From: Bacillota bacterium
Lineage (GTDB): Bacteria; Bacillota; Clostridia; Lachnospirales; Lachnospiraceae
NCBI GenBank assembly: GCA_023411215.1
Contig: JAEYOY010000038.1
Location: forward strand, 1-64,000
Length of the DNA: 64,000 nt
Reading direction: 5' to 3'
Within the stretch, counting starts at the first letter, position 1, and every line of letters starts with the position of its first letter. Shown here piece by piece: positions 18,547 to 64,000 of the stretch. The notes below the pieces were generated by a model. It was not told where the DNA came from. It saw only the letters and a program-made list of their open reading frames with translations, and searched no databases. The position numbers and the translations under genes were made by a program.

Positions 18547-19299
18547 ATGAGACGATACCGCAGGCTAGTTCTAATCTTAGTGTGTGTACTTCTTTCCACG
18601 ATTCCTACAACAGTATTAGCTGCCGATTATACGGTTGTAGCCAACGACTCACTTTATAAGATAAGTCAGTTATTCGATACGCCGATTAATACCATCAAGC
18701 AGGATAACCATCTGACAACTGACACTCTTTACCCCGGACAGGTATTGTATGTTCCTGCAAAAATACATACTGTAATCAACGGGGACAGTCTGTTTACCAT
18801 CTCAAGGCAGTACGGGGTTCCCCTGGCTTCCTTACGTAAAGCGAATAACAAGTGGGATGATCTTATTCTACCTGGTCAGCAGTTCATGATACCCGGTGTA
18901 AAACCGACAGGTGGCGCAAACACAGTCATTCCTTATACAAATAGTGAATTGGATTTGCTTGCCCGATTGATAGAAGCAGAGGCAGGAGGTGAAATCTATG
19001 AGGCGAAGGTAGCGGTCGCTGCTGTTGTGGTTAACCGAGTCCAAAGCAAAGAATGGCCCTCAACTATTACATCAGTAATCAACCATGTGGCTGGAGGATA
19101 TTATCAATTTACTCCTGTAAAAATCGGAACCATCAATAATCCCGCTTCCTCTGATTCCATCCGAGCAGCCTGGGCGGCGCTGTACGGAAGTGATCCAAGC
19201 AAGGACGCTCTCTTCTACTTTGATAACAGCTCTACCAACCAATGGCTCTGGTCAAAGCCCATAACCGCCTATATTGATCATATGGTATTTGTTAAATAG
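18547..19299 (+). CDS. LysM-domain cell-wall hydrolase, SleB-like (spore cortex-lytic enzyme family)
   Basis: Signal peptide, two LysM repeats (YTVVANDSLYKISQ; HTVINGDSLFTISRQYG), and a C-terminal Hydrolase_2/SleB domain (LLARLIEAEAGGE...AVAAVVVNRV). Confidence 0.8.
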   Translation: MRRYRRLVLILVCVLLSTIPTTVLAADYTVVANDSLYKISQLFDTPINTIKQDNHLTTDTLYPGQVLYVPAKIHTVINGDSLFTISRQYGVPLASLRKANNKWDDLILPGQQFMIPGVKPTGGANTVIPYTNSELDLLARLIEAEAGGEIYEAKVAVAAVVVNRVQSKEWPSTITSVINHVAGGYYQFTPVKIGTINNPASSDSIRAAWAALYGSDPSKDALFYFDNSSTNQWLWSKPITAYIDHMVFVK

Positions 19300-32800: not shown

Positions 32801-33276
32801 AGCCGACGATTGCCCTGAATTATGGTTACGCAGAGATGGATATTCTTTATAATAAGGATGGTACATGGAAAAATGCCGTATTTTATGACCAGAGTGGCAA
32901 GGAAATTGATTCAAATCTGATTGTAACGAAATCCTTTGTATATATTTCTGAGGTTAAAGCACAGAGTGCCGGCTTAAAAGCCGGAGTACATATTAATGAT
33001 CTTATACTGCAGTACGGCGACTGGTGTTATTTCCCTGTGAATGAAGAAGATAGTATGTTTACCCTTCTTACAAATGAATTAGAAAGAGTAAAGGATTTAT
33101 CTAAAAAAGTTGTAATATATCGTCCGACGGACGCTTCCATCCAAACCTATCAATTTGATAGCGGGATGGTGGGACTACGAATTAACTCTGTAGATTTCAG
33201 CTTCCCGAGTCAGGAGGCTTATATGGAATACAGCACGGGACTGGAGTCGGCTTATCTTAGTAGCGGCTTAGAATAA
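29872..33276 (+). CDS. TIR-domain transmembrane protein with extracellular YD-like repeats and C-terminal PDZ-like domain
   Basis: N-terminal TIR_2-like motif (YYAFISYKHEDEKWARWIQNKLE...FLIVICSPN...DYEVEQF). One TM helix (LLATASITILLILAGFTLDYYI). About 20 tandem ~23-aa YD-like repeats (GYA...YDE.G.L.....YYD..G.PV). C-terminal GLKAGVHINDLILQYGDW PDZ-like segment. Confidence 0.6.
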   Translation: MMQNSFDTTPETEEKYTYYAFISYKHEDEKWARWIQNKLETYKLPTVLQKEIRDLPNRITPIFRDKTDITSGPLKKTLSKELQSSRFLIVICSPNAAKSIYVDYEVEQFIRMGRQDRIIPLIIDGAVRTQNPEQECFVPSLLAMEETILGVDLPTLGKHKAFLTVIATMLDIKLDTLVRRDRIRQKKKNLLATASITILLILAGFTLDYYIPKTYYYSDYVLQWGIPKGIFRLDYSFLAFGKNELKDRDDFYAVTISKSNKTITLKHMNSAMVPVDYPTETEQSDRPVFAEYDYKVTDGIKQVSDAKYFDRYGNIILVLKYSDDSTIVDFTSPDGSNTPVTLSGSLFSENGTMDVKNLEIKSSITRYIYQYDENGYISLVKFMRDNRATSPTPDQNGITGYICTVDQYGRVVTKRMNYVFDNTIHNTVFDRIYYNYAYQSPNLVSVVYTDAEDNLIYNGDFYAKKEFFYYDNGNISDIYYYGTDGEKCTGPYGYAHASIIYDNKGFIQEVDYYNENNYPVITVFGYAKAQHVHDKKGNLTQASVFDTDGNPVVALPTDIYRYVSGFSTIRRVYDEKNMLISETYYDENDEPMLCTGEYARLDTAYHKGLLSEVSYYDVNGEPKTCNIGFEKFTKEYNEFDLAINWRYCNADGTLSETTWGYSRIELEYDENRNIKSYSFYDENDRLVMTEDNIARQELVWDDRGLLSEQSNYDTVGNLVVSTAGYAKNVKEYNESGLLTKDIYYDQNEEPVYVPDQGYARYEAAYDEYGDCTYKSYYDVDGQLVMTNYGYAEYKAWYDSKAQKVEEAYYDETGSLVLPNGYDWARHTMAYTEEGLPKCESYYDADNHLVINSYTGYAKCYAEYDEWNNMRSKTFYGTDGKEFISPNLGFASVKYVYENNYLIRTSYYDEKGDLIISPTINYAEQIQKLDSNGKLLSSCTYDDTGKPILNLYGYSSVTCTYNQKGLETNRQYLDAQGKPTIALNYGYAEMDILYNKDGTWKNAVFYDQSGKEIDSNLIVTKSFVYISEVKAQSAGLKAGVHINDLILQYGDWCYFPVNEEDSMFTLLTNELERVKDLSKKVVIYRPTDASIQTYQFDSGMVGLRINSVDFSFPSQEAYMEYSTGLESAYLSSGLE

Positions 33277-33382: not shown

Positions 33383-35137
33383 TTATTCCATTACCTCACA
33401 AAGATCATATAATAATACAAGACTATCACCAACCGGTATTTCACCTTCCGCAATATCAAATCCTGATCCATTATATCGAAGTACTTTTACTTTGCTATTT
33501 TCATTTTTTATTCTGGCAGTCACAATATCTTCCATGGTCTTTATTTTTTTGCCGTTCATTTCAATTAAGATATCACCAAGCAGATAGAAGCTGTTCTGTG
33601 GCTTATCCGGTTCATACCCACCGATTAAACATCCGTAGTCAATCCCTGTACTGTCAACTTGTCTAAAGAATGCCTCTGCAATTGGAATGAAAACATCTGC
33701 CTCATCCGATGTATCCTTCTCATGGAATATCTCAAGGCATTCAATACACATATCATACATCTTCAGGGTATTAAAGCGAAGCATCTTCCCCCATATTATG
33801 CCTACTTCATCCGTCTCTAATGGTTTAAATTTTTCCTTTGCTTCTTCCTTTGTCTTATTCAATTCTTCCGTGACTTCCTTTAGTTTATTTACCTTACCCT
33901 CCAGCTCATCGAGCTGTACATTATAATCCCCTATTATAGAAGCAATTTCAGTAATTATATTTTGATACTTCGTAAAATTTGCGTCTGATATCGCTTTTAT
34001 TTCTTCCTTATTCTTACTCCACGACTGCCCATTATAGATATCCGGTAGTATGGGGAGCAATTCTGCTTTAAAATCTTTCAGAGCATCTTCATCTACATCA
34101 ACCAGGATATCATTTATGCCATAAAAAATCAGGTCCTTATTAATATCCATAATCTGTTCATAATAATCTGACAATTGAGTCATCGATGTTTTGGATAATA
34201 CACTTTCACCGGAGGACATATATATCATGTAGTCAATATTATTGAGGAATTCATCGGTACAAGTGATTAGGAAGTCCCTTACAGCAATAATATCATCTTT
34301 TGCTAGAATGGTATTATCAAGCTTTGCCGATAAAGTATCATCCAGTGTGACATAATTATCCTTCGCCTTTGTGATTTTCTCCTTGTTCTTTCTTAAATCC
34401 GATTGAAGAGCAGTATAATTAATTTCAGTCGGATCTGTTAGATAGTATTGGAATGCAGTTATAGCAAGATCATATTCTGCGATTGCTATATTGGCATTTG
34501 TTAAGTTTGTTGAAATATAATATATTACTTCCTTTACGGTGTTCTTATCCGCTTTCGAATATGGAAACGATGCCTGTGTTGTTTGATAGAACTGATACCC
34601 TGTGAATATGACACCAAAAGTAACAAACAATGCAATAACCAAGGGTAAAACCTTTTTAATTAAGCTATTATGAGTGATTCTATGTACAATCCTAGGCTTT
34701 GTTTTTAAAAATTCTACCAACCGTTTTGCAAAAGCATCAAAAAATTCTGTAGATGCCTCTATTCCGCTTTGATACCGAAGCTGTTCCATATCCTCGGGTA
34801 GCTTATCAGGAAATTGAAAGCCTCTTAACAGGACCGGTACCACATTCTTCCTTTTCTGTAAAGCATAAGCTACTTCCAGTCTGACCCAGTCATTATCATT
34901 GCCACATCGCTCCAAACAATTCGGCGATAAAACGGAGATAAAATCCTCGCATTCATCGATTACTGAAAACAGCTTTGAGTTGAATTGCCCCGAGCGAAGC
35001 GATTCAACGTCAAAAAATACATTATATCCCAATTCGGTTAATTTATCATGAATTATTTTAGCTGTATACTCTCCGCCTTCACGCCGATAGCTTATAAAAA
35101 TATCATATTTCATAGTAACTATACCTCCCTGATACAA
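33383..35137 (-). CDS. TIR-domain transmembrane protein with extracellular coiled-coil region and C-terminal PDZ-like domain
   Basis: N-terminal TIR (KYDIFISYRREGGEYTAKIIHDKLTELGYNVFFD...DFISVLSPNCLERCGNDNDWVRLEVAYAL). TM helix (VLPLVIALFVTFGVIFTGYQFY). C-terminal GDILIEMNGKKIKTMEDIVTARIKNENSKVKVLRYNG PDZ-like. Confidence 0.6.
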   Translation of the reverse strand: MYQGGIVTMKYDIFISYRREGGEYTAKIIHDKLTELGYNVFFDVESLRSGQFNSKLFSVIDECEDFISVLSPNCLERCGNDNDWVRLEVAYALQKRKNVVPVLLRGFQFPDKLPEDMEQLRYQSGIEASTEFFDAFAKRLVEFLKTKPRIVHRITHNSLIKKVLPLVIALFVTFGVIFTGYQFYQTTQASFPYSKADKNTVKEVIYYISTNLTNANIAIAEYDLAITAFQYYLTDPTEINYTALQSDLRKNKEKITKAKDNYVTLDDTLSAKLDNTILAKDDIIAVRDFLITCTDEFLNNIDYMIYMSSGESVLSKTSMTQLSDYYEQIMDINKDLIFYGINDILVDVDEDALKDFKAELLPILPDIYNGQSWSKNKEEIKAISDANFTKYQNIITEIASIIGDYNVQLDELEGKVNKLKEVTEELNKTKEEAKEKFKPLETDEVGIIWGKMLRFNTLKMYDMCIECLEIFHEKDTSDEADVFIPIAEAFFRQVDSTGIDYGCLIGGYEPDKPQNSFYLLGDILIEMNGKKIKTMEDIVTARIKNENSKVKVLRYNGSGFDIAEGEIPVGDSLVLLYDLCEVME

Positions 35138-52939: not shown

Positions 52940-53875
52940 CTATTGATATTCCCGAAAGGACACCTCATTCTTTGCTTCCGATAATCGGTCAATAAATTGC
53001 CTGTCCAATTCGGTTAGTTTATAATTCTTAGGATAGACTAATACATCTTTATATCTGTGCCCGTTCACTTTACATGTGCGCTGCACCAGATGATAACGCT
53101 GCAACCACTTCTCCGGAATTGGTGACACCCACATATACGTTGTTGGTATCTCAGACAGCAAATCATATTGGCTGCACCGGTCATATACATAGATGCGCTT
53201 GGAGGTAAGGGAAGAAACTTCTGCCTTCAGACTATTCTGAAGTATATAAGGAATTGAAGTATCACCGTGAGTAACCTGGGTATATTTACTTAGCTCCTGT
53301 TCATTCACATCTTCGCGAAAAGCCATTGGATGCTTCTCAGACATAAGTGCCAGATACTCGAATTCCCAGACTGTTTCATACCGAAGCTGCTTTTCATTCA
53401 GATAATCCACAAAATAATTCTCATAATCTGTCTGATACCTTATAATACCGAGATTAAAGGGTCCGTCAATAATATTATTTATTACCTGAATCGAGTTGGT
53501 CTCCTGTACATTTGCATGAATTCCTTTATTCGTATCTAGCTCTGACAGGAAATTGGTAATCGCATCTGCAATATAGCTCCCCCTTGGAATCGATATATTA
53601 AAGTTCTGAATATCCGCATCCGCTTTATCCGACAATGCTTCCATCTTATCAAGCTGACTCAGGACATTTCTGGCATAGGATAAGAACTTGATTCCCTTCT
53701 GCGTCGGTTTTACTCCCTTGGAGGTACGCTCAAAAATAGTAAATTCAAGAGAATCCTCCAATTCCTTAATGGCCTTACTTAGACTCGGCTGTCCCATATA
53801 TAGATTTTCCGCCGCTTGAGAGATAGAGCTTGTCCTCTCGACTTCAATTACATATTTCAAATGCTGTGTATTCAT
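52940..53875 (-). CDS. LysR-family transcriptional regulator
   Basis: N-terminal HTH (MNTQHLKYVIEVERTSSISQAAENLYMGQPSLSKAIKELE) and LysR substrate-binding domain. Confidence 0.85.
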   Translation of the reverse strand: MNTQHLKYVIEVERTSSISQAAENLYMGQPSLSKAIKELEDSLEFTIFERTSKGVKPTQKGIKFLSYARNVLSQLDKMEALSDKADADIQNFNISIPRGSYIADAITNFLSELDTNKGIHANVQETNSIQVINNIIDGPFNLGIIRYQTDYENYFVDYLNEKQLRYETVWEFEYLALMSEKHPMAFREDVNEQELSKYTQVTHGDTSIPYILQNSLKAEVSSLTSKRIYVYDRCSQYDLLSEIPTTYMWVSPIPEKWLQRYHLVQRTCKVNGHRYKDVLVYPKNYKLTELDRQFIDRLSEAKNEVSFREYQ

Positions 53876-54008
53876 CCTGACACCTAACTTTCTATAATAT
53901 AACACGAACAATCATGATACCGTTTTATGTATCATCCATTCTGCCGCAAACCCGCGAATTTAGGCAGCAGCACAAATTTGCTGATTGAAAAATCTAAGAT
54001 TTTTCAAT

Positions 54009-54662
54009 CTAGTCTACCGATTTCAGGGCTCGCTTCAGATGATTGGATAAAACAGCAAGGGAAGCGGCCAGATTTTCATTTTGCACAAGAATGTGGTCAG
54101 GTACAGACAAATGAATCGGTGCGAAATTCCAGATTGCAAGCACCCCTCCGGCAACCAGCTGGTCGCATACGGTCTGTGCTTGGGATGCCGGCACGGTAAT
54201 AATTCCGATATGAATCTTCATACGCCGACATAGATTACTGATTTTATCAGTCGGTAATACTTTGATCCCGTTAATCTCTGTATTAATTAGCTCCGTCTTT
54301 ACATCAAAGGCTGCAATAATCTTCAGACCGTAATTCTGAAAATCAACATGAGCCATTATGGCACGTGCAAGTGAACCAGCGCCGACGATTACCGCATCTT
54401 CGGCATTGTTATAGCCTAGCAAATCTTCCATCGCAGCCAATAATTCCTCTACGATAAAGCCTGTCTTCGGTTTGCCTTTGGTTACATAAACAGATGCAAA
54501 ATCCTTTCGGACCTGTACTTCATTGAGCTTCAAGAATTCTGCAACCTTAGGAGCTGATATTGTCTCGACCCCTTGCTCCTTTAATATCCGAAGCTGCTGG
54601 ATATAATAGGGCATTCTGTATAACGCCTGTGTTGTTACCGCTCCCTTACCCTTTTCTGTCAT
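54009..54662 (-). CDS. Rex-family redox-sensing repressor (second paralogue)
   Basis: Same architecture as the Rex at 49266..49910 (FLKLNEVQVRKDF; VIVGAGSLARAI; NENLAASLAVLSNHL). Confidence 0.8.
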   Translation of the reverse strand: MTEKGKGAVTTQALYRMPYYIQQLRILKEQGVETISAPKVAEFLKLNEVQVRKDFASVYVTKGKPKTGFIVEELLAAMEDLLGYNNAEDAVIVGAGSLARAIMAHVDFQNYGLKIIAAFDVKTELINTEINGIKVLPTDKISNLCRRMKIHIGIITVPASQAQTVCDQLVAGGVLAIWNFAPIHLSVPDHILVQNENLAASLAVLSNHLKRALKSVD

Positions 54663-55055
54663 TTCCCTTCCTCCGCTAAATCAGTATTATATTATCGATA
54701 TTATAATGCTGATTTATCAATACGTCAATCACGAAGAATTCGGGGGCAGTTACATAATGATCTGTACTTCGGAAGAAAGATGATTAAGCTCCCTTCCTAT
54801 AGTATAGGAATTTTACAACAGCTCCATCGTATATTTCGCGACGATATCACTTTATTGGTCATATTTGCAGACAAATTGTTCCTCCTATTCATCGTTTTAT
54901 TAATATTTATTGTTAATTTTTTATTAATAATATAATTGTCATTTTACTCTTGCATTTTTCTTTTTATTGTGTAATAATAAACCTATAATAAATTTTACAC
55001 AATATAATTGTTATAAACCTAATACAAATTAATATACGTAAAGGAGTGCATATAT

Positions 55056-55682
55056 ATGTTTAAACAGATCGAACTAAATTATAATTTCAACGCATTGGAG
55101 CCTTATATTGATGAACTTACCATGGTAACCCACTATACTAAGCACCATGCTGCTTATACCAGTAATCTGAATGCAGCGCTGGAAAAAGTAACTGAGCTAA
55201 CCTATTCTTCGATCGAAGACCTATTCAAAAACCTCGACCGCATATCCGACGAAGCATCGCGGGCAGCAATAAGAAATAACGGTGGTGGTTATTATAACCA
55301 TAACCTGTATTTTGCCACACTGCAGCCCGGCGGCAGTAAGGAACCTAAGGGTGAACTGGCAAATCAGATCTCGAAGGATTTTGGTGACTACAATAGCCTA
55401 AAGGATAAACTGGCAAGCGCCGGAGCAACCCGCTTCGGTTCCGGTTGGGCTTGGTTATCAGCAAATAAGAAGGGTGAGCTCAAGGTATCCTCAAGTCCAA
55501 ATCAGGATAATCCGTTAATGGATAGTCAGGAAGATTGGGTTCCCATCCTAGGTATCGACGTGTGGGAACATGCTTATTATCTGAAGTACAGGAACCTCCG
55601 CGCCGACTATATCAAAGCCTTCTTTGAATTAGTTAACTGGGATGTCGTTGCTGATCATTATGCCAAAGTAAAAGAGGCGTAG
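55056..55682 (+). CDS. sodA: superoxide dismutase [Mn/Fe]
   Basis: Metal-ligand His (HYTKHH), DVWEHAYY motif, ~200 aa. Confidence 0.9.
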   Translation: MFKQIELNYNFNALEPYIDELTMVTHYTKHHAAYTSNLNAALEKVTELTYSSIEDLFKNLDRISDEASRAAIRNNGGGYYNHNLYFATLQPGGSKEPKGELANQISKDFGDYNSLKDKLASAGATRFGSGWAWLSANKKGELKVSSSPNQDNPLMDSQEDWVPILGIDVWEHAYYLKYRNLRADYIKAFFELVNWDVVADHYAKVKEA

Positions 55683-55820: not shown

Positions 55821-56024
55821 TTATTGTTCTATTATACTGTACTCTAGATACTCATATCGCAGATGAGTACCTTCTATGATCTGCGGCGGCAGAATTGCCC
55901 TTGCCACCAGCTTAGGTTCATCATCCGGCTGGTCTACCCTAACAAGATGAGCATAATCCCCGTCAATCTTTCCTACTATATATTCAAATGCTTCCATGCT
56001 ATCACCCCTTGTCTGTGATGTCAT
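55821..56024 (-). CDS. small DUF3006-like protein
   Basis: Internal EYIVGKIDGDYAHLVRVD resembles DUF3006 (I.DRfEGdyAVle). The stop is translationally coupled to the start of the kinase gene. Confidence 0.35.
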   Translation of the reverse strand: MTSQTRGDSMEAFEYIVGKIDGDYAHLVRVDQPDDEPKLVARAILPPQIIEGTHLRYEYLEYSIIEQ

Positions 56025-58381
56025 TCAATGAGCACTTCGAAGGGTACCTCACCCAGCTGCTCTTTGATTATTTTTTGTTGCTCCTGATTACAATATACTG
56101 TCTTCAAAGTCTTAACCCCAAGAAGCGGGGTATAATCGGAGCATTTAGAATCCCGCAGGTGAATCTGCTCTAAGCAGGTTAACTTCTCGATTCCGGTAAG
56201 GTCAAGTACTTGACAGTACACAAGATAAAGCTGGGTAAGCTTCGGATTCGACAGGTCTCCCAGATTGCTGTTATTCCACATACCGCATAAATCAAGTAAA
56301 TATAAGGATTTTAGCGTTGATAATTTCGATAGATCAATCCGATCGCTACCGAAAATCTTTAATATCTTAAGATTGGTCAACTTGCTCACTCGGTCAATCG
56401 CCCGATCGGTAATGGCATTATTGACTCCGGTCAGGATCAGATTATCTAAGGTAGCAATCTCGTCTAAACCGATGCAGTCACCCATCTTACACTCAAATAA
56501 GGATAAAAAGTATAGCTTCAGCTCTTTTATCTCATATAGGCTGGTGACCTTGGTAGCACCCAGATCAAGCCCCCACAGATACGGCAGCTCCCTCAGATGC
56601 TTAAGCTCGTCATTCATGATCGGATTACCTGACAGATCAATATAATTCAAGCTCTTAATAGAAGTAAGATGTGTCAGTTCACTGATATTGTTGCTTCCAA
56701 GTCCAAGATAAGATAAGTAATGCAAATCCTTCAACGGAGCAAGATCACTAATCTTTTGGTTATATAAAGCCAGCATCTCCAGATTCACCATATGGGAGAT
56801 GTCCTCAAGACTTGTAACCTCACCGTTAACGGTAAATAATTGAGTATCTGTATATTGTGAGCCAATCATATATTGATTGACACCATAGACAAAATGCTCC
56901 TCCCAACGGTTATAACGCTGTTTACCACAGATAAACAAGGAGGTAATCTGCTCCAAGTCACCATAGGTTACCTTATCCTTATCAGACTTGTCAAGTATCT
57001 CCCGTACTGCCGCTTCAATCAAGGGGGACTGAAAGTCATACTCTATCTCATTATTCTTGGCAAGTGCAGGAGTCACCGCTCGCTCCGTTATCTGATCGGA
57101 ATTCTCCTGTTCCATCGATATTTCCTGAACTTCCTCGCCTGCTTGTTGTGCGATTCTTTTATTCTTAGTCTGGGCATCCTTTTTTTCTTTTGCAGAGAGC
57201 TCTTCCTTGGAAGCCTCTTCTTCGAATGGTATCGACCTTTGCTTCTCGTCTACTTCAAAAGCCAGACCCGAAATATCTACTACTGTCGATTCCGTGGGAT
57301 TGACAGTAGCGTGTACCGTCATATCCTTCTCTTCTCCTCCGCCTGCAGCGGACTCTGCTGTTTCCGGCAAAGAGAGTTCTGGTGTAATATCTCTCGGCTT
57401 CTCTGTTAAAACCGTGCTGCTTAGGCTGGGATCAATACTTGATGTTATCACTGCCTTATCCTCATATGCAATGGACTGCTTCGAAGCGAGGTTGAATAAA
57501 CCAAGTGTCAGAACTAAGGAGGCAATTAAGATGATCCCTGCATAGAAAAATCTACGCTTTCTATATAGATATGGATAACTGTTCAATTTATTTTTTAAGA
57601 GCTTAACGGACGAATAGCGATCTTTCGGCGAAAATCCGGTACACTTAATAATAATTCTTCGTATATCTCCCGATATCGGATATTGCTTTAAATCACGGAT
57701 ATCCAGATTACCGGTCGCCATATAGAACATCAGAACACCAATGGAGTAGATATCACTTCGTTCATTCGTCTGAGCAAATCCATACTGTTCCGGCGGTGCC
57801 GAAAATTGTGTTCCCATTACAAAGGTATCCGAATCAAGCTTCCCCTGATATCTTCTTGAGATCCCAAAGTCAATGAGTTTGCATTCCTTTTGCTTTGTTA
57901 CAATAATATTATCCGGTTTGATATCCCGGTGAATAATGGGTGGTTTCTGCGAGTGAAGATATTCCAGAATATCACACAGCCGGAGTGTAATCAGCAGCAG
58001 CTCCTCGTGCTGAAGATGGCCTTCTTCTGTCATCTCAACCAACTCAGTGACAGTATAGCCCTCCACATACTCACGTATCAAATAATTGTATTCTCCTCCT
58101 TCAATATACTCGACTGCAGCAACAATACCGGGATGGGACAACTCCCTCGACAACCGGAATTCCTCCTTCAGACTCTCGTGGCAATGACTGGAGAGTGCTT
58201 TCAATATGTACTTCTTCCAATTTGTTTTTGAGGTCACTAAATAGACCTGTTTATCTTCGCTCATCTTTAAACAGGCTTTTATCTCATAGCGATTCGTAAT
58301 GTCTTCTAAAATGTCATGACCCATCCAGTCACTATTGTTGTATTCCATAAAGAAATCCAATACTTTGCCCATAGATCTCAT
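56021..58381 (-). CDS. receptor-like Ser/Thr protein kinase with extracellular leucine-rich-repeat domain
   Basis: Hanks kinase motifs (HRDIKPDNIIV, DFGISR, APE-like SAPPEQ). One TM helix (FFYAGIILIASLVLTLGLF). The C-terminal ~330 aa have LxxLxLxxN repeats (LSYLGLGSNNISELTHLTSIKSLNYIDLSGNPI...). Confidence 0.8.
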   Translation of the reverse strand: MRSMGKVLDFFMEYNNSDWMGHDILEDITNRYEIKACLKMSEDKQVYLVTSKTNWKKYILKALSSHCHESLKEEFRLSRELSHPGIVAAVEYIEGGEYNYLIREYVEGYTVTELVEMTEEGHLQHEELLLITLRLCDILEYLHSQKPPIIHRDIKPDNIIVTKQKECKLIDFGISRRYQGKLDSDTFVMGTQFSAPPEQYGFAQTNERSDIYSIGVLMFYMATGNLDIRDLKQYPISGDIRRIIIKCTGFSPKDRYSSVKLLKNKLNSYPYLYRKRRFFYAGIILIASLVLTLGLFNLASKQSIAYEDKAVITSSIDPSLSSTVLTEKPRDITPELSLPETAESAAGGGEEKDMTVHATVNPTESTVVDISGLAFEVDEKQRSIPFEEEASKEELSAKEKKDAQTKNKRIAQQAGEEVQEISMEQENSDQITERAVTPALAKNNEIEYDFQSPLIEAAVREILDKSDKDKVTYGDLEQITSLFICGKQRYNRWEEHFVYGVNQYMIGSQYTDTQLFTVNGEVTSLEDISHMVNLEMLALYNQKISDLAPLKDLHYLSYLGLGSNNISELTHLTSIKSLNYIDLSGNPIMNDELKHLRELPYLWGLDLGATKVTSLYEIKELKLYFLSLFECKMGDCIGLDEIATLDNLILTGVNNAITDRAIDRVSKLTNLKILKIFGSDRIDLSKLSTLKSLYLLDLCGMWNNSNLGDLSNPKLTQLYLVYCQVLDLTGIEKLTCLEQIHLRDSKCSDYTPLLGVKTLKTVYCNQEQQKIIKEQLGEVPFEVLIE

Positions 58382-58658
58382 CCTCTGTTCGGGTTAAGGT
58401 GTCAAAAGATAATTTTTACATTTTAATCCTTGTAAAATTAAGTTAATATCTTAACATTATTATAAATTGACAAAAAAAGTATAGCAACAAAATACTTTAA
58501 GTAATTTGTGCTATACTTTATTATTATCTTAATTTAGGTCTAATGCACTACCTGTTTGTAAGTATAATTACTAATCTATTCCAGAAGTTACTGCTACAGA
58601 GCAGTAACTCCTGGCCCCCGAATAAGAAAGACTGCTAATTGTTGTTATTTCAAAATTA

Positions 58659-61600
58659 CTATTCCGCTTTATAAATATTGTAAAGAATTACAGCAACCTC
58701 TGCTCTGGTCAGAGTGGCTTTCGCGTTAATCTTTTTTCCGCTAATGTTTAGAATTCCTGATTTGATAAGCTTAGCCATACTAGTAACCGAACTGTTTGAA
58801 ACCTTGGCTGCATCATTGAATTTAGATAGATCCTCTCTGGTAGCTGATTTTAGTGACTTCTGTGACAGCTGCATGGCTCTCACTACATAAATTGCCATTT
58901 CTTCCTTCGTTATCAACTGATCAGCGTAGAATTTACTCTTACCTGTACCAGATAGGATTCCTAGTTTCTTTGCTGTACCTATTGCATTATAGTTCGGATT
59001 TGTAGCTTTTACATCGGCAAAATTAGTATTAACTTCTGCTGTCAGACCCAGGGTATTCAGAAGATATGAGATAAAATCTCCTCTGGTAACCTTACCCTCC
59101 GGATCAAAGGTTGTATCAGTTTTTCCATTCATGATACCCTTCGATGCAACAAACTCAATCTCATTCTTAGCATCCAACTCTGCAATATCTTTAAAGCTCT
59201 TCATTACATAAGCAACTGCAAACGTGCTAAAGTGAGTCGTCGTAAATGTAACCGTTCCGGTTTTCGCATCATATCGTCCGTTTGATACCGTTTGAACCTT
59301 TCCTTTGCTGTCAATGTACCAAACGACGATATGGTCTGGATTCTTTAATTCCTTCGCAGTTGGCTTATACGGTATCGCAATTGTTATAGTTGCATTTACA
59401 TTACTCCAGGTTATTGCTTTTCCATCGATAGAAGCTGATAATTGGAGGATCGGTCTACTTCCTATTGCCCTTAAAGTCTCTTTATCCAGTTTACTATTAT
59501 CTGCCGCAGTAATTGAGATACCAAGATTGCTCCTATTCTTCAAATCCTTTGAAGCAAACATGTTTCCGGGCACGGTGATTGTTCCGATCGGTGTTATTAT
59601 CTGAATATTCAGGTCTGCACCACCAGCCTGCATGGCACTTACCGGCAGAATCTGTGTATAGGTTTTCACACCTTTCACCTTTTGGATCTCAATTATAACT
59701 GTTTTGACTCCATCTGTGTCTTCCTTTGTTTCGGTAATCGCAGTGTTTAATTCTGCATTCGTAGTAGTTGCTGTTGCAATACTTCCTTTCTTTACCGGTT
59801 TTTCTAATATGGTATGCGTCTTGCTCTCCGACTTATTTGTTTCAGAAGTATCCGCTTGTGGCGGTGCTTCCGGTTTCGCCTTGTCATCCTTGTTGTCCTC
59901 GGAAGGTACTACACCACCGGGAGCTCCTCCGGGATAACCGCCACCAGGATTACCTCCTCCGGGATTACCTCCTCCGGGATTACCTCCGTTATTCGCAGGT
60001 TGTGTTCTTGTAACACTGATTGTAAGCAAGGTTTCATGTCCAACCACATCCACTGCCTTGACATGGAAGGTATTGGAGCCCAGGTTCAGGTTTTGTCCTG
60101 TGATGCTGAAATTTCCGGCAGGATTTCCTGCTATTACCAGCGTATTACCCAGATAGATGTCAGCTGCTTCATCAAGGGTTCCTGTCAGGTTGATCGTAGC
60201 ATTCTCAGTCTGTGTAACGGTAGTTGATTTAATTACAGGATTTTTTCTATCCACGGTTAGATTGATCGTTGTGCTTGCCCATCTTAGCTGCCCGCCTACC
60301 GTCTTCTTAGCCGTTATTGCTATCGTATAGCTATGCTGCTCACCTGCCGCACCAAGACTTACGCTTGCACTTGCACTGGATCCGGTTATTGTTGCATTGA
60401 CATTAACCGGTGGCTGGTTATCGGTGGCTTTTGTAATAATCAGTTCGTCAACATTGTCTGCTGTGATGTTCAGCGTTTTATCCGTCGCATACTTACCATC
60501 GTTATTTGCACCTGTCACATTAATTACAGGTACACTCTTGTCAATTGTAAATACTACTGTTCTTGATGATGTATTTCCATAGGAGTCCGTTGATGATACC
60601 ACAAGGGTATGCTGTCCTTCCGTTGAGAATACACCCGGAGTATAGTTATTTCCATCCATTGTAATACTTGTATTCGTTGTATGGGAATCCGATACACTAA
60701 CCCCAATCGTTACATTATTTCCGTATACATCACCGTTGCTTACACCTGTTATAGTAATGGAAGGTGCCGTTGAATCTCTTGTAACACTGATAGCCTGGGC
60801 TGCTGTTGTATTACCGAAGGAATCTGTTGCGGTAACATTAATCGTATTGACAGCGTTATCAGTCAGGTTGAAGGCAATTATTCCGCCACCATTCAATTGT
60901 CCTTTTGAAGCACCATTAATAAATATCTCCGCATTCTCTCCGGTATTGATTGAGATGTCAACCGAGTTCCTGTTCGTATTTGTAGTAGCTGCCACTGCGG
61001 TCAGCGATGGCGAGGTGACATCAACCTGATAGTTTCTTATCACTGTCGCTGTATTTCCGGCAGCATCCGAAGCCTTGATAGTAACCTCATGTGCACCATC
61101 CGTCAGATCGAGTGCTATACTAAAGCTTACATCCAGATTGGATGCAGGGATACCACTGATATCCATGGAAACGCCGTCTATCAATACCTGCGTTATTACT
61201 ACATTAGGATCCGCGTCTGTAATCGCTCCTTCGATCTTCATACCACCTGCATCTTTGACTGCTTTATTGATGACGAAATTTGAAGTCGTCACAGTAAGAA
61301 CAGGGGCAATATTATCCTGTGCAACCTGATAGGAGGAGAAATTAGTAGTCCTGAAGATCAGATAACCTGTGTCAATTAGATAATAAGGGTCATCTACTCC
61401 CATACCACCGATTCCCGGATCTGTGGACATTACTACTTTCGCGATCAATGTCTTATCAACTACTCCACTTTCATTCACATGCATCAGTACAACACCATTC
61501 AGTCCTACCCCGATATAATTCCTGATTAATAACGGAGTAGTCGGATCGATTGATGTTCCCTGATCATTTATAAAATCAAATGAAATTGCTGCTCCAAGAG

Positions 61601-64000
61601 GCTTATAATTTGTTATTCCATTTACATCTACCGTCTTCACAAGAATCTGCGTACTGGTATCAAATGCATCGTCCGGAATATCCATGGTAGCATTATCATT
61701 TAAGGGCAGATCATTATGTGCGGTATTCGGAGGTATATAGGTGCTGGTATAAGATCCTGTACCCATATTCCCAACCTCATCCAGTGCTGTTGCATTCAAA
61801 ACATTGGTACCTTCTACAGGCAGTGGTGTTATGACGTGGTATATTTTTTGCTGACCGGTAGGTACTGCTGTAACATTATCAGCTGATACGACATCTCCAT
61901 TAAATTTAACAATCGGTTTTGTTATGTTTTCACTTGATGTAATTGTATAATGCGTATCATCGATTTTTTCAAGTTGTAGAACCGGCACTGTACTATCCAG
62001 AGTTCTAGTCAGAGTAACTGCATTTTGGCTCTGGTTTCCTGCAAGATCAATCGCTGTAATGCTAAAGGTATTCCATCCTTCCGTCAGCCTGATACCGTCA
62101 AAATCAAAGGTACCGCCTATTTTCACACTGGCCTTAGCGATTACTTCTCCTGACTTTTTCAGCAGTACCTTCGTACCGGTTGTGGGGCCTTCACTGGATA
62201 CGGTACCATTAATCTTTAGATACTCCATCGAGGTGGTTCCGGTTGCCGGTGAGATTAAAGTTACATCTGCCGGTTGGATACTGTCAAATGCAAATACATA
62301 GACTTTTTCATCGGATACATTTCCTGCAGGATCCATTGCATAGTAGAAAAGAACATTTGTCCCCTGGGAAGGCGTAAGTTCCTTACTGCCTGCCGCTGAC
62401 CCTGAGCTTCCGTTCAAATTCCAGTAAATAGTATCATTCGTCCCGGTAGCCAAAGTTACCTTAGTAGTCGGAGATTTGAATATTTGATTATCTCCATCCG
62501 GTACTGCAGGATTCGTATGGATACTTACCAAAGGCTTGGTATTATCAATGGTTAAAGTCTTGTTATAGCTTTGTGAGGCTAAATTACCAGCTTTGTCCTT
62601 TGCACTGACCGAGATGGCAAGGGCATCGAAGCTTCCGCTTCCTATATTGAATTTTCCCTCATAATAGTCTCCTGTTTCGATATATTGCATCGATACAGCT
62701 GTTGTTCCTATATAGAGGATAACATCTCCTACACCGCCCAAATCCGTTGCCTTTGCTCTTACTGTAATGATATCACCTGCTTTGGCAATGATACTGTCTG
62801 AGTAGGCTGCTGCATTTTTCATCACACTGATCACAGAAACAGCAGGTGCAGTTTTATCTATTGTGAAATGCAATGTCTTGGAATAAGTTATCCCTTTGCT
62901 TACATATTTGGCAACCAGAGTATGTGCCCCTGCTATAGAATAACTTCCTCCATTGAAGGCTATACCGTCAATTGTTACTGTAGTTCCTTGCTGTTCTTGT
63001 GTTCCTTCAAAGGTAGTGAAGGATATATCCAGACTGGAGTTGACCAACATACCTTCGGTTACACCATTTACAATTATATTTACTGCAAGTCGGTCAATCG
63101 AAAAGCTCAGTTGCTGTTCCGTAGTATTTCCTGCCATATCCACTGCCTTTGCGATTACCTTATAAGTGACTACCTGATTTGCCATTCCGGTAAAGGTATA
63201 CTGACCACTGCTATTTAGAGTAATTGCTTCGCCGGAATCATTTAGAACAGTTAAATTTCCCTCGTTTGTCTTAATTGTAAGTGTCACACTCTGATCTTTA
63301 TAAGTAGCTCCATTGAAGGCTCCAGTGATCGATATTACCGGCTTGGTCTTATCAATCGTGAAGCTCTTTGTCACTATATTAGAGACATGGTTCATGGAAT
63401 CTTTTGTCTTTGCGGTTAGAACATAATCGCCATCTAAGGATATGGTGTCTCCCATGTGATAGGTAACAAGTACTCCACTCCTTCTCAGGGTTACCTCGGC
63501 ATTGGTAAGTAGAATCTGCTGTGAAGTAACGTCATCCGTAAAGCTTAAGATAGGAGTAACCGCATAATTATAAATCGCATGATCCGATACTCCTACAACA
63601 GCTGCTACAGGAGCTGATTTGTCAATGATAAATTCAACTACCTTGCTGCTGGTTTTATCAGAATAACCGGGATTCGTGGCAACTATCTCAAGACGGTATG
63701 CACCCGGTCCTGTAAGCGCCGGTACACCATTCTCTTTAATCACTATATTTCCGTTTGGCAGTTTCAGGCTTGCCTTATAGCTATAATTGGCCTGGTTACT
63801 GTTCTCAGGGAGAGTACCTACGTCCGAAGCTAGGGAAACCGAAATGGTTGCAGTCTCATATATACCGCCATTTGTAACTCCATTGATTGTGATTACCGGA
63901 CTGCTGCTGTCCCATATAATATCAAAGTTACTGCTGACCGTCTTGATATTTCCGGCTGCATCCTTTGCTGTGGCAGTCAAAACATAATGACCTGCTTCGC
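58659..64000 (-). CDS. giant S-layer-associated surface protein (partial; N-terminus beyond window) with many Ig-like domains, Gly/Pro linker and C-terminal SLH domains
   Basis: The reading frame is open to the window edge. It contains tandem Ig-like/Big-type beta domains, a (GGNPG)3 linker, and three C-terminal SLH repeats (FKDIAELDAKNEIEFVASKGIMNG...TRGDF; FADVKATNPNYNAIGTAKKLGILSG). Confidence 0.8.
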   Translation of the reverse strand, partial: EAGHYVLTATAKDAAGNIKTVSSNFDIIWDSSSPVITINGVTNGGIYETATISVSLASDVGTLPENSNQANYSYKASLKLPNGNIVIKENGVPALTGPGAYRLEIVATNPGYSDKTSSKVVEFIIDKSAPVAAVVGVSDHAIYNYAVTPILSFTDDVTSQQILLTNAEVTLRRSGVLVTYHMGDTISLDGDYVLTAKTKDSMNHVSNIVTKSFTIDKTKPVISITGAFNGATYKDQSVTLTIKTNEGNLTVLNDSGEAITLNSSGQYTFTGMANQVVTYKVIAKAVDMAGNTTEQQLSFSIDRLAVNIIVNGVTEGMLVNSSLDISFTTFEGTQEQQGTTVTIDGIAFNGGSYSIAGAHTLVAKYVSKGITYSKTLHFTIDKTAPAVSVISVMKNAAAYSDSIIAKAGDIITVRAKATDLGGVGDVILYIGTTAVSMQYIETGDYYEGKFNIGSGSFDALAISVSAKDKAGNLASQSYNKTLTIDNTKPLVSIHTNPAVPDGDNQIFKSPTTKVTLATGTNDTIYWNLNGSSGSAAGSKELTPSQGTNVLFYYAMDPAGNVSDEKVYVFAFDSIQPADVTLISPATGTTSMEYLKINGTVSSEGPTTGTKVLLKKSGEVIAKASVKIGGTFDFDGIRLTEGWNTFSITAIDLAGNQSQNAVTLTRTLDSTVPVLQLEKIDDTHYTITSSENITKPIVKFNGDVVSADNVTAVPTGQQKIYHVITPLPVEGTNVLNATALDEVGNMGTGSYTSTYIPPNTAHNDLPLNDNATMDIPDDAFDTSTQILVKTVDVNGITNYKPLGAAISFDFINDQGTSIDPTTPLLIRNYIGVGLNGVVLMHVNESGVVDKTLIAKVVMSTDPGIGGMGVDDPYYLIDTGYLIFRTTNFSSYQVAQDNIAPVLTVTTSNFVINKAVKDAGGMKIEGAITDADPNVVITQVLIDGVSMDISGIPASNLDVSFSIALDLTDGAHEVTIKASDAAGNTATVIRNYQVDVTSPSLTAVAATTNTNRNSVDISINTGENAEIFINGASKGQLNGGGIIAFNLTDNAVNTINVTATDSFGNTTAAQAISVTRDSTAPSITITGVSNGDVYGNNVTIGVSVSDSHTTNTSITMDGNNYTPGVFSTEGQHTLVVSSTDSYGNTSSRTVVFTIDKSVPVINVTGANNDGKYATDKTLNITADNVDELIITKATDNQPPVNVNATITGSSASASVSLGAAGEQHSYTIAITAKKTVGGQLRWASTTINLTVDRKNPVIKSTTVTQTENATINLTGTLDEAADIYLGNTLVIAGNPAGNFSITGQNLNLGSNTFHVKAVDVVGHETLLTISVTRTQPANNGGNPGGGNPGGGNPGGGYPGGAPGGVVPSEDNKDDKAKPEAPPQADTSETNKSESKTHTILEKPVKKGSIATATTTNAELNTAITETKEDTDGVKTVIIEIQKVKGVKTYTQILPVSAMQAGGADLNIQIITPIGTITVPGNMFASKDLKNRSNLGISITAADNSKLDKETLRAIGSRPILQLSASIDGKAITWSNVNATITIAIPYKPTAKELKNPDHIVVWYIDSKGKVQTVSNGRYDAKTGTVTFTTTHFSTFAVAYVMKSFKDIAELDAKNEIEFVASKGIMNGKTDTTFDPEGKVTRGDFISYLLNTLGLTAEVNTNFADVKATNPNYNAIGTAKKLGILSGTGKSKFYADQLITKEEMAIYVVRAMQLSQKSLKSATREDLSKFNDAAKVSNSSVTSMAKLIKSGILNISGKKINAKATLTRAEVAVILYNIYKAE

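What the first reader, a model, noticed from the sequence alone, without database searches (positions are those of the whole stretch)
56021..58381. Bacterial receptor-like kinase: Hanks Ser/Thr kinase - TM - extracellular leucine-rich repeats
PASTA-domain kinases are the usual Firmicutes receptor kinases. An LRR ectodomain instead mirrors plant LRR-RLK or animal TLR-like sensing. It is translationally coupled to a small DUF3006-like ORF. This is a candidate sensor of a host or community proteinaceous ligand.
Basis: partly seen in the sequence, partly recalled or inferred. Interest (0 to 1): 0.55.

Follow-up and report, generated by a model that had tools for sequence, protein, structure and literature searches.

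The report
Bacterial LRR receptor Ser/Thr kinase

Summary
ORF 56021-58381 (-) encodes a Hanks-type Ser/Thr kinase (aa ~26-268), one TM helix (aa ~278-300, RKRR on the N-side), a disordered acidic linker (303-440) and an internalin-like LRR domain (441-786). The catalytic residues are invariant in 87 homologs. The Gly-rich loop has no glycine, and this is a family trait. The conserved start is ATG 58372 (783 aa). 'Coupled to a DUF3006-like ORF' is only partly right. The small ORF is a real, divergent DUF3006 member. Its supported start is 24 nt after the kinase stop (58 aa), and it is next to the kinase in only the window and one relative out of 10 species-level loci with readable downstream sequence. 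The conserved context is different. On the window's own contig the order is PucR-like regulator, 148-aa XRE-type HTH protein, 4,991-aa secreted SLH giant, then the kinase. The HTH gene accompanies this kinase family across Clostridia and Coriobacteriia. The giant slot holds unrelated proteins in different genomes. A conserved hairpin/promoter block precedes the kinase gene. The best reading is a receptor kinase signalling to the HTH regulator; the ligand is unknown. I found no description of it in the literature searched. I rate it a new variant of a known kind, of moderate interest.

The parts
56021..58372 (-). LRR receptor Ser/Thr kinase gene (783 aa from the conserved ATG at 58372; the mechanical ORF begins at 58381)
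   Evidence: P0001 is 100% identical and 783 aa; the first ATG is not conserved
57578..58306 (-). Cytoplasmic Hanks-type kinase domain (aa ~26-268); K61, E74, HRDIKPDN 151-158, DFG 171-173 and PPE 196-198 are intact
58235..58276 (-). Glycine-free 'Gly-rich loop' (aa 36-49, ACLKMSEDKQVYLV), a conserved family trait; modelled as a normal beta1-beta2 hairpin
57482..57550 (-). Single transmembrane helix (aa ~278-300), RKRR on the cytoplasmic side
57062..57475 (-). Disordered, acidic, Ser/Thr/Pro-rich extracellular linker (aa 303-440), hypervariable among orthologs (61% down to 14% identity); inferred wall-spanning spacer
56024..57061 (-). Extracellular internalin-like LRR domain (aa 441-786): N-cap (YxFxSPLIEAAVR), an insertion in the first repeat, about 10 repeats of 22-25 residues, and a C-terminal cap
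55821..55997 (-). Small ORF, 58 aa from the supported start; divergent DUF3006 family; an incidental neighbour, not a conserved partner
58473..58522 (-). Conserved long palindrome or hairpin (about 19 pairs, -18.2 kcal/mol, z -5.9) followed by T7; candidate terminator of the giant gene and/or operator
58459..58487 (-). Promoter-like TTGCTA-17-TATAAT overlapping the 3' arm of the palindrome, conserved in six loci; candidate promoter of the kinase's own
58581..58614 (-). GC-rich hairpin just after the giant gene's stop (-24.4 kcal/mol, z -5.2), kept with compensatory changes in L088
58659..64000 (-). C-terminal 1,773 aa of a 4,991-aa secreted giant protein (Big_13/Big_3_3 Ig-like repeats, three SLH domains); runs off the window. 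Its start, the XRE-type HTH gene (P0399) and a PucR-like gene lie about 9.6-11.7 kb beyond the window end on the same contig

Best explanation
The gene encodes a single-pass bacterial receptor Ser/Thr kinase. Its N-terminal Hanks-type kinase faces the cytoplasm. One TM helix and a ~135-residue disordered acidic spacer carry a C-terminal internalin-like LRR solenoid to the outside of the cell (shown).

The kinase keeps every catalytic residue but has a glycine-free nucleotide loop. It is therefore probably active with unusual ATP handling (inferred, about 0.75).

It belongs to a distinct kinase family marked by PEQYGFxQT after the activation loop. This family's steady genetic partner is a ~150-aa XRE-type helix-turn-helix protein. 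In this Lachnospiraceae-like clade the HTH gene and the kinase gene bracket a giant secreted cell-surface protein gene, and a PucR-like regulator lies upstream (shown).

The most likely mechanism is that a conserved extracellular ligand binds the LRR, or that LRR-mediated clustering occurs. This activates the RD kinase by activation-loop phosphorylation (the invariant D185-T186). The kinase then phosphorylates the HTH regulator and possibly other targets, tuning transcription of the cluster, including the giant surface protein (inferred, about 0.4-0.5).

The kinase gene appears to have its own conserved promoter overlapping a terminator- or operator-like palindrome. It would then be expressed separately from, and probably at a lower level than, the structural giant. 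The DUF3006-like ORF is not part of the system.
For: Architecture and topology.

Catalytic residues invariant and the Gly-free loop family-wide.

HTH partner:
- It overlaps the kinase start in L003, L004 and L086 and precedes the giant in L089.
- It is found next to 13 of 16 motif-bearing kinases against 3 of 64 others (Fisher 8.7e-10).
- The family has 1,886 members. Besides P0399 on the window's own contig, 13 HTH hits share their longest-contig length with a kinase-LRR homolog (kinase contig lengths). This suggests, but does not prove, the same contig.
- P0399 sits on the window's own contig in the order PucR, HTH, 4,991-aa giant, kinase.
- The HTH fold is XRE-type.

Giant upstream in all close-clade loci, of two unrelated types, both secreted.

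HTH is 91% identical between genomes whose kinases are 61% identical and whose giants are unrelated.

LRR is strongly conserved and tracks the kinase domain, while the linker is hypervariable.

Conserved promoter and palindrome block upstream of the kinase in six loci.
Against: - There is no experimental evidence for activity, ligand or substrate.
- The glycine-free loop could impair ATP binding.
- No dedicated topology predictor was available. The topology rests on hydropathy, the positive-inside rule and domain logic.
- The HTH-kinase link is genomic association only. Loci in the Fisher test are not phylogenetically independent (for example four near-identical Collinsella loci).
- In this clade the HTH gene is followed by a terminator-like hairpin (read by eye in the output, not folded or tested). 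It is also 15 kb from the kinase, so the genes are a cluster and not a demonstrated operon.
- Covariation support for the palindrome as RNA is weak (one compensatory pair, 34 of 500 shuffles), so its role as terminator or operator is open.
- No PP2C phosphatase partner was looked for systematically.
Confidence: 0.5

Rival explanations
1. The protein is a receptor kinase that senses a host or community proteinaceous ligand and works together with the translationally coupled DUF3006-like small protein.
For: LRR solenoids of the internalin type typically bind proteins; Foldseek gives InlA and InlF as the best matches. An ATGA overlap is formally present. The small ORF belongs to a real conserved family.
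Against: The small ORF's supported start is 24 nt downstream. It is absent from 8 of the 10 species-level loci with readable downstream sequence, including the 87% relative. It occurs without a kinase elsewhere. The nearest named relatives are Herbinix and Mobilitalea MAGs, which from my own knowledge (not checked here) are not host-associated.
Confidence: 0.12
2. The LRR ectodomain docks onto or monitors the neighbouring giant surface protein. In this view the kinase reports on export, assembly or mechanical load of that specific protein, a dedicated surface-protein checkpoint.
For: A giant secreted protein gene lies directly upstream on the same strand in every close-clade locus examined. 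Both proteins are extracytoplasmic.
Against: The giants are of two unrelated types, yet the LRR stays 69-77% identical across the switch and simply tracks the kinase domain. More distant family members have the LRR kinase and the HTH gene but no giant. A distant SLH-giant homolog has no kinase neighbour.
Confidence: 0.15
3. It is a pseudokinase or scaffold. The glycine-free loop abolishes productive ATP binding, and the protein signals only by protein-protein contacts.
For: The canonical GxGxxG is completely absent in this clade and degenerate family-wide. The Pfam match starts only at profile position 14. Atypical Firmicute Hanks kinases exist, for example C. difficile CD2148 (PMC9674922).
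Against: K61, E74, D153, N158, D171 and the PE motif are invariant over 87 sequences down to about 30% identity, which is not expected without catalysis. CD2148 lacks D and N, whereas this family keeps them. The beta1-beta2 hairpin is modelled normally with high confidence.
Confidence: 0.12
4. The HTH-kinase pair is an anti-phage or toxin-antitoxin-like module (compare PD-T4-6, Stk2, or HipBA with its XRE antitoxin) and not an environmental sensor.
For: The kinase domain scores 134 bits (E 1e-39) on PADLOC PD-T4-6 and mad6 models. The HTH gene overlaps the kinase start in distant loci, as in TA pairs. The HTH fold also resembles HipB and CapH.
Against: The PADLOC scores are no better than the generic Pkinase or PknB scores (118 and 127 bits), and the PADLOC models have no curated cut-off. 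The strongly conserved extracellular LRR and single-pass receptor topology fit sensing. The context is a conserved chromosomal cluster with surface-protein and housekeeping genes. The HTH itself gets no significant PADLOC hit.
Confidence: 0.08

Closest known systems
PASTA-domain Hanks kinases of Gram-positives (PknB / PrkC / Stk1)
   Same: Same overall plan: N-terminal cytoplasmic Hanks kinase, a single TM and a C-terminal extracellular sensor. The kinase fold is closest to PknB (TM-score 0.74). It is an RD kinase with threonine in the activation loop.
   Different: It has no PASTA repeats (NF033483 scores 127 bits against a cut-off of 450). The sensor is an LRR solenoid on a long disordered spacer. 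The Gly-rich loop lacks glycine. It carries the family-specific PEQYGFxQT motif. It is genetically paired with an XRE-type HTH gene. No PP2C phosphatase gene was seen among the called neighbours in the loci examined, though none was searched for systematically.
Plant LRR receptor-like kinases (and oomycete or choanoflagellate LRR-RKs)
   Same: The functional logic is the same: an extracellular LRR, a single TM and a cytoplasmic Ser/Thr kinase.
   Different: The domain order and orientation are reversed (kinase N-terminal and N-in; no signal peptide). The LRR is the bacterial 22-residue internalin type. The kinase is not of the RLK/Pelle group. This is convergence and not homology. A survey of 884 bacterial genomes reported such receptors only in eukaryotes (PMC3268121).
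Listeria internalins (InlA, InlF, InlH)
   Same: They are the best structural and sequence matches for the ectodomain (Foldseek E 5e-16; NCBIfam internalin_A 64 bits). They share the N-cap plus roughly 22-residue repeats.
   Different: Internalins are secreted or wall-anchored adhesins with a signal peptide, an inter-repeat Ig domain and LPXTG or GW anchors. Here the LRR is the C-terminal ectodomain of a membrane kinase. All internalin models score far below their cut-offs.
Other bacterial kinase+LRR proteins: the Vibrio splendidus secreted STPKLRR effector, Roco proteins, and a P. aeruginosa STYK with LRR
   Same: Kinase and LRR modules occur together in one bacterial protein (PMC10237653; PMC1262709; the Roco LRR appears as a Foldseek hit).
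   Different: From the paper's title and abstract, STPKLRR is a secreted effector that acts on a host protein (PMC10237653). From my own knowledge, not checked here, Roco proteins are cytosolic and contain Roc-COR GTPase domains. None of them is a single-pass receptor with an extracellular LRR paired with an HTH gene.
DUF3006 (PF11213) small proteins
   Same: The 58-aa ORF's family matches DUF3006 in 35 of 41 members.
   Different: The window's ORF scores below the Pfam cut-off (13.4 against 32.3 bits). The function of the family is unknown, and it is not linked to the kinase.

Membership tests
Hanks-type (eukaryotic-like) protein kinase, Pfam PF00069 | Profile match above the curated cut-off | tested here: met
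   118.1 bits against a cut-off of 31.7, aa 45-229
Hanks-type (eukaryotic-like) protein kinase, Pfam PF00069 | Catalytic residues: beta3 Lys, alphaC Glu, HRD Asp, catalytic-loop Asn, DFG Asp, APE Glu | tested here: met
   K61, E74, D153, N158, D171 and E198 are invariant or at least 90% conserved in 87 sequences
Hanks-type (eukaryotic-like) protein kinase, Pfam PF00069 | Gly-rich loop GxGxxG | tested here: not met
   The sequence is ACLKMSEDKQVYLV with no glycine. Distant members keep at most the third G
Hanks-type (eukaryotic-like) protein kinase, Pfam PF00069 | Phosphotransfer activity | not testable with these tools
   Needs an autophosphorylation assay
PASTA kinase (PknB/PrkC/Stk1, NF033483) | Equivalog score and extracellular PASTA repeats | tested here: not met
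   126.7 bits against a cut-off of 450, covering the kinase domain only; no PASTA hit
Single-pass receptor kinase topology (kinase in, sensor out) | One TM helix, cytoplasmic kinase, extracytoplasmic sensor | tested here: met
   There is one hydrophobic peak. The positive-inside rule holds in 30 of 32 homologs. The model shows a TM helix. No dedicated predictor or experiment was available
Plant-type LRR-RLK | Signal peptide, N-terminal extracellular LRR, TM, C-terminal RLK/Pelle kinase | tested here: not met
   The order is reversed and there is no signal peptide. The kinase is nearest to bacterial PknB
Internalin family (NCBIfam internalin_A/H/K) | Score above the family cut-off; signal peptide; LRR plus IR domain plus wall anchor | tested here: not met
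   64 bits against a cut-off of 1600, and similar for the other models. Only the LRR part resembles internalins
LRR domain (Pfam LRR_4, PF12799) | Profile match above the cut-off; solenoid fold | tested here: met
   46.9 bits against 27. The model has pLDDT >90 with alternating short strands and helices
DUF3006 (PF11213), for the small ORF | Profile match above the gathering cut-off | tested here: not met
   13.4 bits against 32.3 for the ORF itself. At family level 35 of 41 members match at E<1, best 3.5e-7. It is therefore related but divergent
XRE/Cro-C1 HTH regulators, for partner P0399 (outside the window) | Five-helix HTH fold and profile match | tested here: inconclusive
   Pfam HTH_31/HTH_3 hits are below the cut-off (E 1e-3). 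The PDB profile search gives E 0.06. Foldseek gives TM-scores of 0.7-0.8 to SinR, DdrO and Cro over about 66 aa, but with E 0.04-0.3. DNA binding is untested
PD-T4-6 / MADS Mad6 defence kinases (PADLOC) | Specific model match beyond generic kinase similarity; defence-island context | tested here: inconclusive
   134 bits, comparable to the generic kinase models, and there are no curated cut-offs. The context is not obviously a defence locus
Roco / LRRK-type kinases | LRR-Roc-COR(-kinase) architecture | tested here: not met
   No Roc or COR domain hit

The most novel reading that the evidence does not exclude
The LRR receptor kinase and its XRE-type HTH partner form a dedicated Ser/Thr-phosphorylation signalling pair, a functional counterpart of a two-component system. 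The pair is widespread in Clostridia and Coriobacteriia with interchangeable sensor ends (LRR, multi-TM or short). In this clade it frames a 'slot' in which unrelated giant cell-surface proteins are exchanged and placed under its control. This would be both an independent bacterial invention of LRR receptor-kinase signalling and a new regulatory cassette for giant adhesin or S-layer-associated proteins.
Probability: 0.3. Interest if true: 0.75.

Novelty: new variant of a known kind. Interest (0 to 1): 0.55.

Why it matters
Receptor Ser/Thr kinases of Gram-positive bacteria are understood almost entirely through the PASTA/peptidoglycan paradigm. This family shows that Clostridia have many receptor kinases with a protein-binding LRR sensor instead. 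That is a convergent counterpart of plant and oomycete LRR receptor kinases, which an earlier survey did not find in bacteria (PMC3268121).

The family comes with a ready-made candidate substrate and regulator (the HTH partner), a candidate cis-element, and a candidate output (a giant surface protein). The signalling question is therefore directly testable.

The family's glycine-free nucleotide loop combined with a fully conserved catalytic core is also a natural test case for what the Gly-rich loop is needed for. Because relatives occur in gut Oscillospiraceae, [Eubacterium] siraeum and Collinsella, the module may matter for how abundant commensals regulate their surfaces.

Tried and rejected
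1. The genome-contig scan used back-translated kinase motifs. It was swamped by generic PknB-like kinases, and only L002-L004 were full-length relatives. It did turn out useful as an internal control set for the HTH association.
2. I tried to retrieve the full 4,991-aa giant by homology search. The exact protein was not returned. The cluster head was reached instead through the HTH family and contig-length matching.
3. I tested whether SLH giants in general are linked to such kinases. P0122 (44% identity) has no kinase neighbour, so this was rejected.
4. I tested whether the two giant types are related. There is no BLAST similarity in either the C-terminal or the N-terminal parts. About residues 1928-2430 of the SLH giant were never seen.
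5. The PADLOC scan matches the kinase domain only and is not diagnostic.
6. NCBIfam on the HTH partner gave nothing significant.
7. A PDB sequence search with the small-ORF family gave nothing.
8. C. difficile CD2148 was considered as a known relative. It was rejected because it lacks the catalytic D and N.
9. The fold_alignment of the spacer hairpin used mis-cut coordinates for two loci and is uninformative. It was replaced by pair counting on alignment A8, which shows conservation but only one compensatory pair.
10. The consensus terminator scan missed the AT-rich palindrome, so its negative result for the minus strand should not be relied on.
11. My first classifier for 'Gly-less' kinases (a regex) misfiled the Collinsella kinases. 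The PEQYGFxQT motif was used instead.
Full report
OBSERVATION

- Pfam finds a protein kinase domain at aa 45-229 (E 6e-34) and LRR_4, with weaker LRR_14, LRR_8 and LRR_EndoS matches between aa 520 and 765.
- NCBIfam aligns aa 450-765 to internalin-type LRR models, and the kinase to PknB-type and other Hanks kinases. All of these score far below the equivalog cut-offs.
- A hydropathy scan finds a single TM segment at aa ~278-300. It is preceded by RKRR and followed by an acidic, Ser/Thr/Pro-rich stretch. The N-terminus is hydrophilic, so there is no signal peptide.
- Across 32 homologs a single TM lies at the same place, and the N-side flank carries more Lys+Arg in 30 of them.
- An AlphaFold model built on 87 sequences is confident (pLDDT >90) for aa ~20-300 (kinase plus TM helix) and aa ~440-786 (solenoid). 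It is disordered for 304-439.
- Foldseek against the PDB returns internalins InlA and InlF for the ectodomain (E ~5e-16) and M. tuberculosis PknB for the kinase (TM-score 0.74).

The architecture 'Hanks kinase, TM, extracellular LRR' is therefore confirmed. The one limit is that no dedicated topology predictor or experiment was available.

1. Start codon. The database protein that is 100% identical is 783 aa. In the 80% relative the first ATG is absent while the second is conserved behind AGAGGA. The real start is ATG 58372.

2. Catalytic core. K61, E74, HRDIKPDN (151-158), DFG (171-173), D185-T186 in the activation loop and PPE (196-198) are invariant or nearly so in 32- and 87-sequence alignments reaching down to ~30% identity. 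By the usual criteria this is not a pseudokinase.

3. Nucleotide loop. The Gly-rich loop is ACLKMSEDKQVYLV, with no glycine. Close relatives share it, and distant ones keep at most the third glycine (ECLAxNxxGETxLL). The Pfam match accordingly starts at profile position 14. The model still shows a normal beta1-beta2 hairpin.

4. Conservation pattern. Per-domain identities to orthologs show a strongly conserved LRR (95, 85, 77, 73, 69%) that tracks the kinase domain (93, 93, 81, 82, 77%). The 303-440 spacer decays from 61% to 14%. That pattern fits a selected binding module on a length-only spacer, most simply one that spans the cell wall (inference).

THE SMALL ORF

The ORF at 55821-56024 formally overlaps the kinase stop (ATGA). 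Three results put its start at ATG 55997, giving 58 aa beginning 24 nt after the kinase stop:
- A strong Shine-Dalgarno sequence (AAGGGGTGA) precedes an internal ATG at 55997.
- In the 80% relative the gene is called as 57 aa starting 24 nt after the kinase stop.
- In an exhaustive phmmer search the homologs (318 clusters at E<1e-3, 68 at E<1e-10) mostly align from query residue 10 to their own residue 1.

The family is a tightly conserved ~57-aa protein (IDGDYAxLxR...KLVARALLPxEIxEGSxLxYE). The window's copy scores only 13.4 bits on DUF3006 against a cut-off of 32.3. However, 35 of 41 members hit DUF3006, with a best E of 3.5e-7, so 'DUF3006-like' is fair.

The ORF is not a partner of the kinase:
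- It is next to the kinase only in the window and in L088.
- It has been lost from the 87% relative, where only the junction and an RBS-like remnant remain.
- It is absent from the Herbinix locus and all other related loci.
- It stands next to unrelated genes elsewhere.

THE CONSERVED CONTEXT

Homolog search shows the Pkinase+LRR architecture is common. There are 4,703 hits at E<1e-5, and nearly all of the top 120 carry LRR_4 (118 of 120; P0046 and P0047 do not). Where named, they come from Lachnospiraceae (Herbinix, Mobilitalea), Oscillospiraceae, Acetanaerobacterium, [Eubacterium] siraeum and 'Clostridiales'. The window itself is scaffold_10 of an ENA metagenome assembly.

Two neighbours recur.

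(a) A giant secreted protein lies directly upstream on the same strand.
- An SLH/Big_13 type of ~4,991-4,999 aa occurs in the window, L087, L088 and the P0006 genome (adjacent locus tags H6Q59_998 and H6Q59_999).
- An unrelated type occurs in L089 and L082: signal peptide, Big_2 domains, Pro/Thr linker and a long helical region, 2,337-2,366 aa. It has homologs upstream of the kinases in L083, L084 and L085.
- The two types share no detectable similarity in the parts seen. The window's giant has its own signal peptide.
- A more distant SLH giant has no kinase neighbour.

(b) A ~150-aa helix-turn-helix protein.
- It overlaps the kinase start in the distant loci L003, L004 and L086, and precedes the giant in L089.
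- Using the genome scan as a control set, 13 of 16 kinases with the family motif PEQYGFxQT have this gene in the locus. Two of the three exceptions are truncated contigs. Only 3 of 64 other kinases have it, and those three are evident relatives with a slightly different motif. Fisher's test gives p = 8.7e-10, with the caveat that some loci are close relatives.
- The arrangement is either co-directional and overlapping, or divergent. Hosts include Collinsella, Senegalimassilia, Selenomonadaceae, Faecalimicrobium and Otoolea. Their kinases carry other C-terminal ends (three TM helices, or short tails).
- A profile search finds 1,886 family members.
- One member, P0399 (148 aa), lies on the window's own contig. 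The look-up shows PucR-like regulator (392 aa), P0399, then the 4,991-aa giant, all on the kinase's strand, about 9.6-11.7 kb beyond the window's end. L089 has the same frame, PucR, HTH, giant, kinase.
- P0399 is 91% identical to the L089 protein, although the kinases are 61% identical and the giants unrelated. The flanks are conserved and the giant behaves as an exchangeable insert.
- The P0399 model (pLDDT 85) has a five-helix core that superimposes on XRE-family DNA-binding domains (SinR, DdrO, CapH, 434 Cro, HipB; TM-scores 0.7-0.8 over ~66 residues). It adds an N-terminal helix pair and two C-terminal helices. Sequence-level support is weak.

THE GIANT-TO-KINASE SPACER (58382-58658)

The spacer is not neutral.
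- Just after the giant's stop there is a GC-rich hairpin at 58581-58614 (-24.4 kcal/mol, z -5.2). It is kept with compensatory changes in L088.
- Further on there is a long near-perfect palindrome at 58473-58522 (GTATAGCACAAAtTACTT-A-AAGTATTTTGTTGCTATAC; -18.2 kcal/mol as RNA, z -5.9). A T7 run follows it, and its 3' arm contains the -35 of a TTGCTA-17-TATAAT promoter-like site.
- The palindrome is unique in the window, with 0 expected by chance.
- The whole block is conserved in six loci, including Herbinix and both loci with the other giant type.
- Pairing is kept in 94.7% of cells, but with only one compensatory pair. The element could therefore be an intrinsic terminator for the giant's transcript, an operator for a dimeric regulator, or both.
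- Either way, the kinase gene probably has its own promoter and is not simply co-translated with the giant. I call the arrangement a cluster and not a proven operon.
- The HTH gene is also followed by a terminator-like hairpin. I read this by eye in the output and did not fold or test it.

MECHANISM

Shown:
- The receptor topology.
- The intact catalytic core with an atypical nucleotide loop.
- The conserved LRR on a variable spacer.
- The family-wide genetic pairing with an XRE-type HTH gene.
- The clade-specific insertion of unrelated giant secreted proteins between the two.
- The conserved cis-block in front of the kinase gene.

Inferred: ligand binding or clustering through the LRR activates the RD kinase by activation-loop phosphorylation. 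The kinase then phosphorylates the HTH regulator, and perhaps other proteins, to adjust transcription of the cluster, including the giant surface protein.

The LRR does not diverge with the giant type. A direct, specific LRR-giant interaction is therefore less likely than recognition of something conserved, such as an envelope component or a common extracellular cue. I put the architecture at ~0.95, catalytic activity at ~0.75, a functional kinase-HTH link at ~0.6, and the whole chain at ~0.4-0.5.

RIVALS
The coupling is refuted and the ligand is untestable here.
- A dedicated monitor of the neighbouring giant. This is weakened by LRR conservation across unrelated giants, and by family members that lack a giant.
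- A pseudokinase or scaffold. This is weakened by the invariant catalytic residues. The atypical C. difficile CD2148 lacks D and N (PMC9674922), and this family does not.
- A defence or TA-like HTH-kinase module. The PADLOC PD-T4-6 and mad6 hits are no better than generic kinase scores, and the topology and context do not fit.

COMPARISON WITH THE KNOWN

The protein works like a PASTA kinase in layout but fails its membership test: there is no PASTA domain, and it scores 127 bits against a cut-off of 450. It is analogous to plant LRR-RLKs but not homologous. The domain order and orientation are reversed, the LRR is internalin-type and the kinase is bacterial-type. Its ectodomain resembles internalins but lacks their signal peptide, IR domain and anchors.

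In the literature available to me:
- A survey of 884 bacterial genomes reported LRR receptor kinases only in eukaryotes (PMC3268121).
- An early census mentions one P. aeruginosa kinase with LRRs (PMC1262709).
- A Vibrio effector combines STPK and LRR but is secreted (PMC10237653).
- Searches for a Firmicute LRR receptor kinase, or for a Hanks-kinase/XRE pairing, found no description.

Databases do carry automatic names such as 'serine/threonine protein kinase/LRR protein', so the architecture is catalogued but not studied.

VERDICT

I file it as a new variant of a known kind: a Gram-positive receptor Hanks kinase with an LRR sensor and a glycine-free loop. It has an unreported but well-supported genomic partnership with an XRE-type regulator and a slot for giant surface proteins. 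Interest is moderate (0.55). It is not a surprise in principle, but it is a widespread, unstudied signalling module with clear experiments attached.

Noticed in passing
window 29872-33276 (+) and 33383-35137 (-): These are two convergent large ORFs (1,134 and 584 aa) with N-terminal TIR domains. The hits are TIR_2 at E ~3e-14, and the first ORF also hits ThsB_TIR at 7e-9. They lie beside a low-GC stretch (26-30 kb, GC 0.33-0.34) that also holds an M48 peptidase with a Zn-ribbon, a Zn-ribbon protein and a 610-aa ORF with no Pfam hit. This may be a small defence island.
   Followed up: partly
L089 684-7697; L082 1-3733; L092 6667-12447; window 58659-64000: The slot between the conserved HTH gene (91% identical between genomes) and the kinase gene holds two unrelated giant secreted proteins in different genomes. 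One is an SLH/Ig-repeat type of ~4,991 aa. The other is 2,337-2,366 aa, with Big_2 domains, a PT-linker and a long helical region that has no Pfam match. This looks like cassette-like replacement of giant surface proteins within a fixed regulatory frame.
   Followed up: partly
L092 6448-6666 (window's contig, beyond the window end): The spacer between the HTH gene and the giant gene contains a strong inverted repeat (CTCCCAAACTGATATACT...AGTATATCAGTTTGGGAG) followed by TTTTCTTTT. It looks like a terminator or attenuator between the regulator and the giant gene. I read it by eye and did not fold or test it.
   Followed up: no
L083 3260-5596 and 5674-7845: Two LRR receptor kinase paralogs (778 and 723 aa) sit in tandem in one genome, showing local duplication of the receptor.
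   Followed up: no
L006, L007, L010, L035, L038, L039, L044 (genome scan loci): Relatives of the same kinase family that are paired with the HTH gene end in two or three TM helices instead of one TM plus an LRR. They come from Collinsella, Coriobacteriaceae, Faecalimicrobium and a record labelled Methanobrevibacter smithii that is near-identical to the Collinsella loci (probably a binning contaminant). The family therefore swaps its sensor end.
   Followed up: partly
L088 10376-11051; L087 10612-10899; L082 6650-6937; L091 1372-1850: In relatives a 95-aa Dabb (stress-responsive alpha/beta barrel) gene follows the kinase or the small ORF. In an unrelated contig the DUF3006-like gene is also followed by a 95-aa ORF. 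The small protein's true partner may be that gene and not the kinase.
   Followed up: no
window 54009-55682 and 52940-53911: Immediately downstream of the kinase region lie a Rex-type redox repressor (Put_DNA-bind_N + CoA_binding), a divergent Fe/Mn superoxide dismutase and a LysR-type regulator. SOD is also near the kinase in L089. These are ordinary housekeeping genes, and no link to the kinase is evident.
   Followed up: no
window 17503-18087 (-) and 18547-19299 (+): These are a small secreted Big_5 protein and a LysM x2 + Hydrolase_2 (SleB-like) cell-wall hydrolase. Both are ordinary envelope genes.
   Followed up: no
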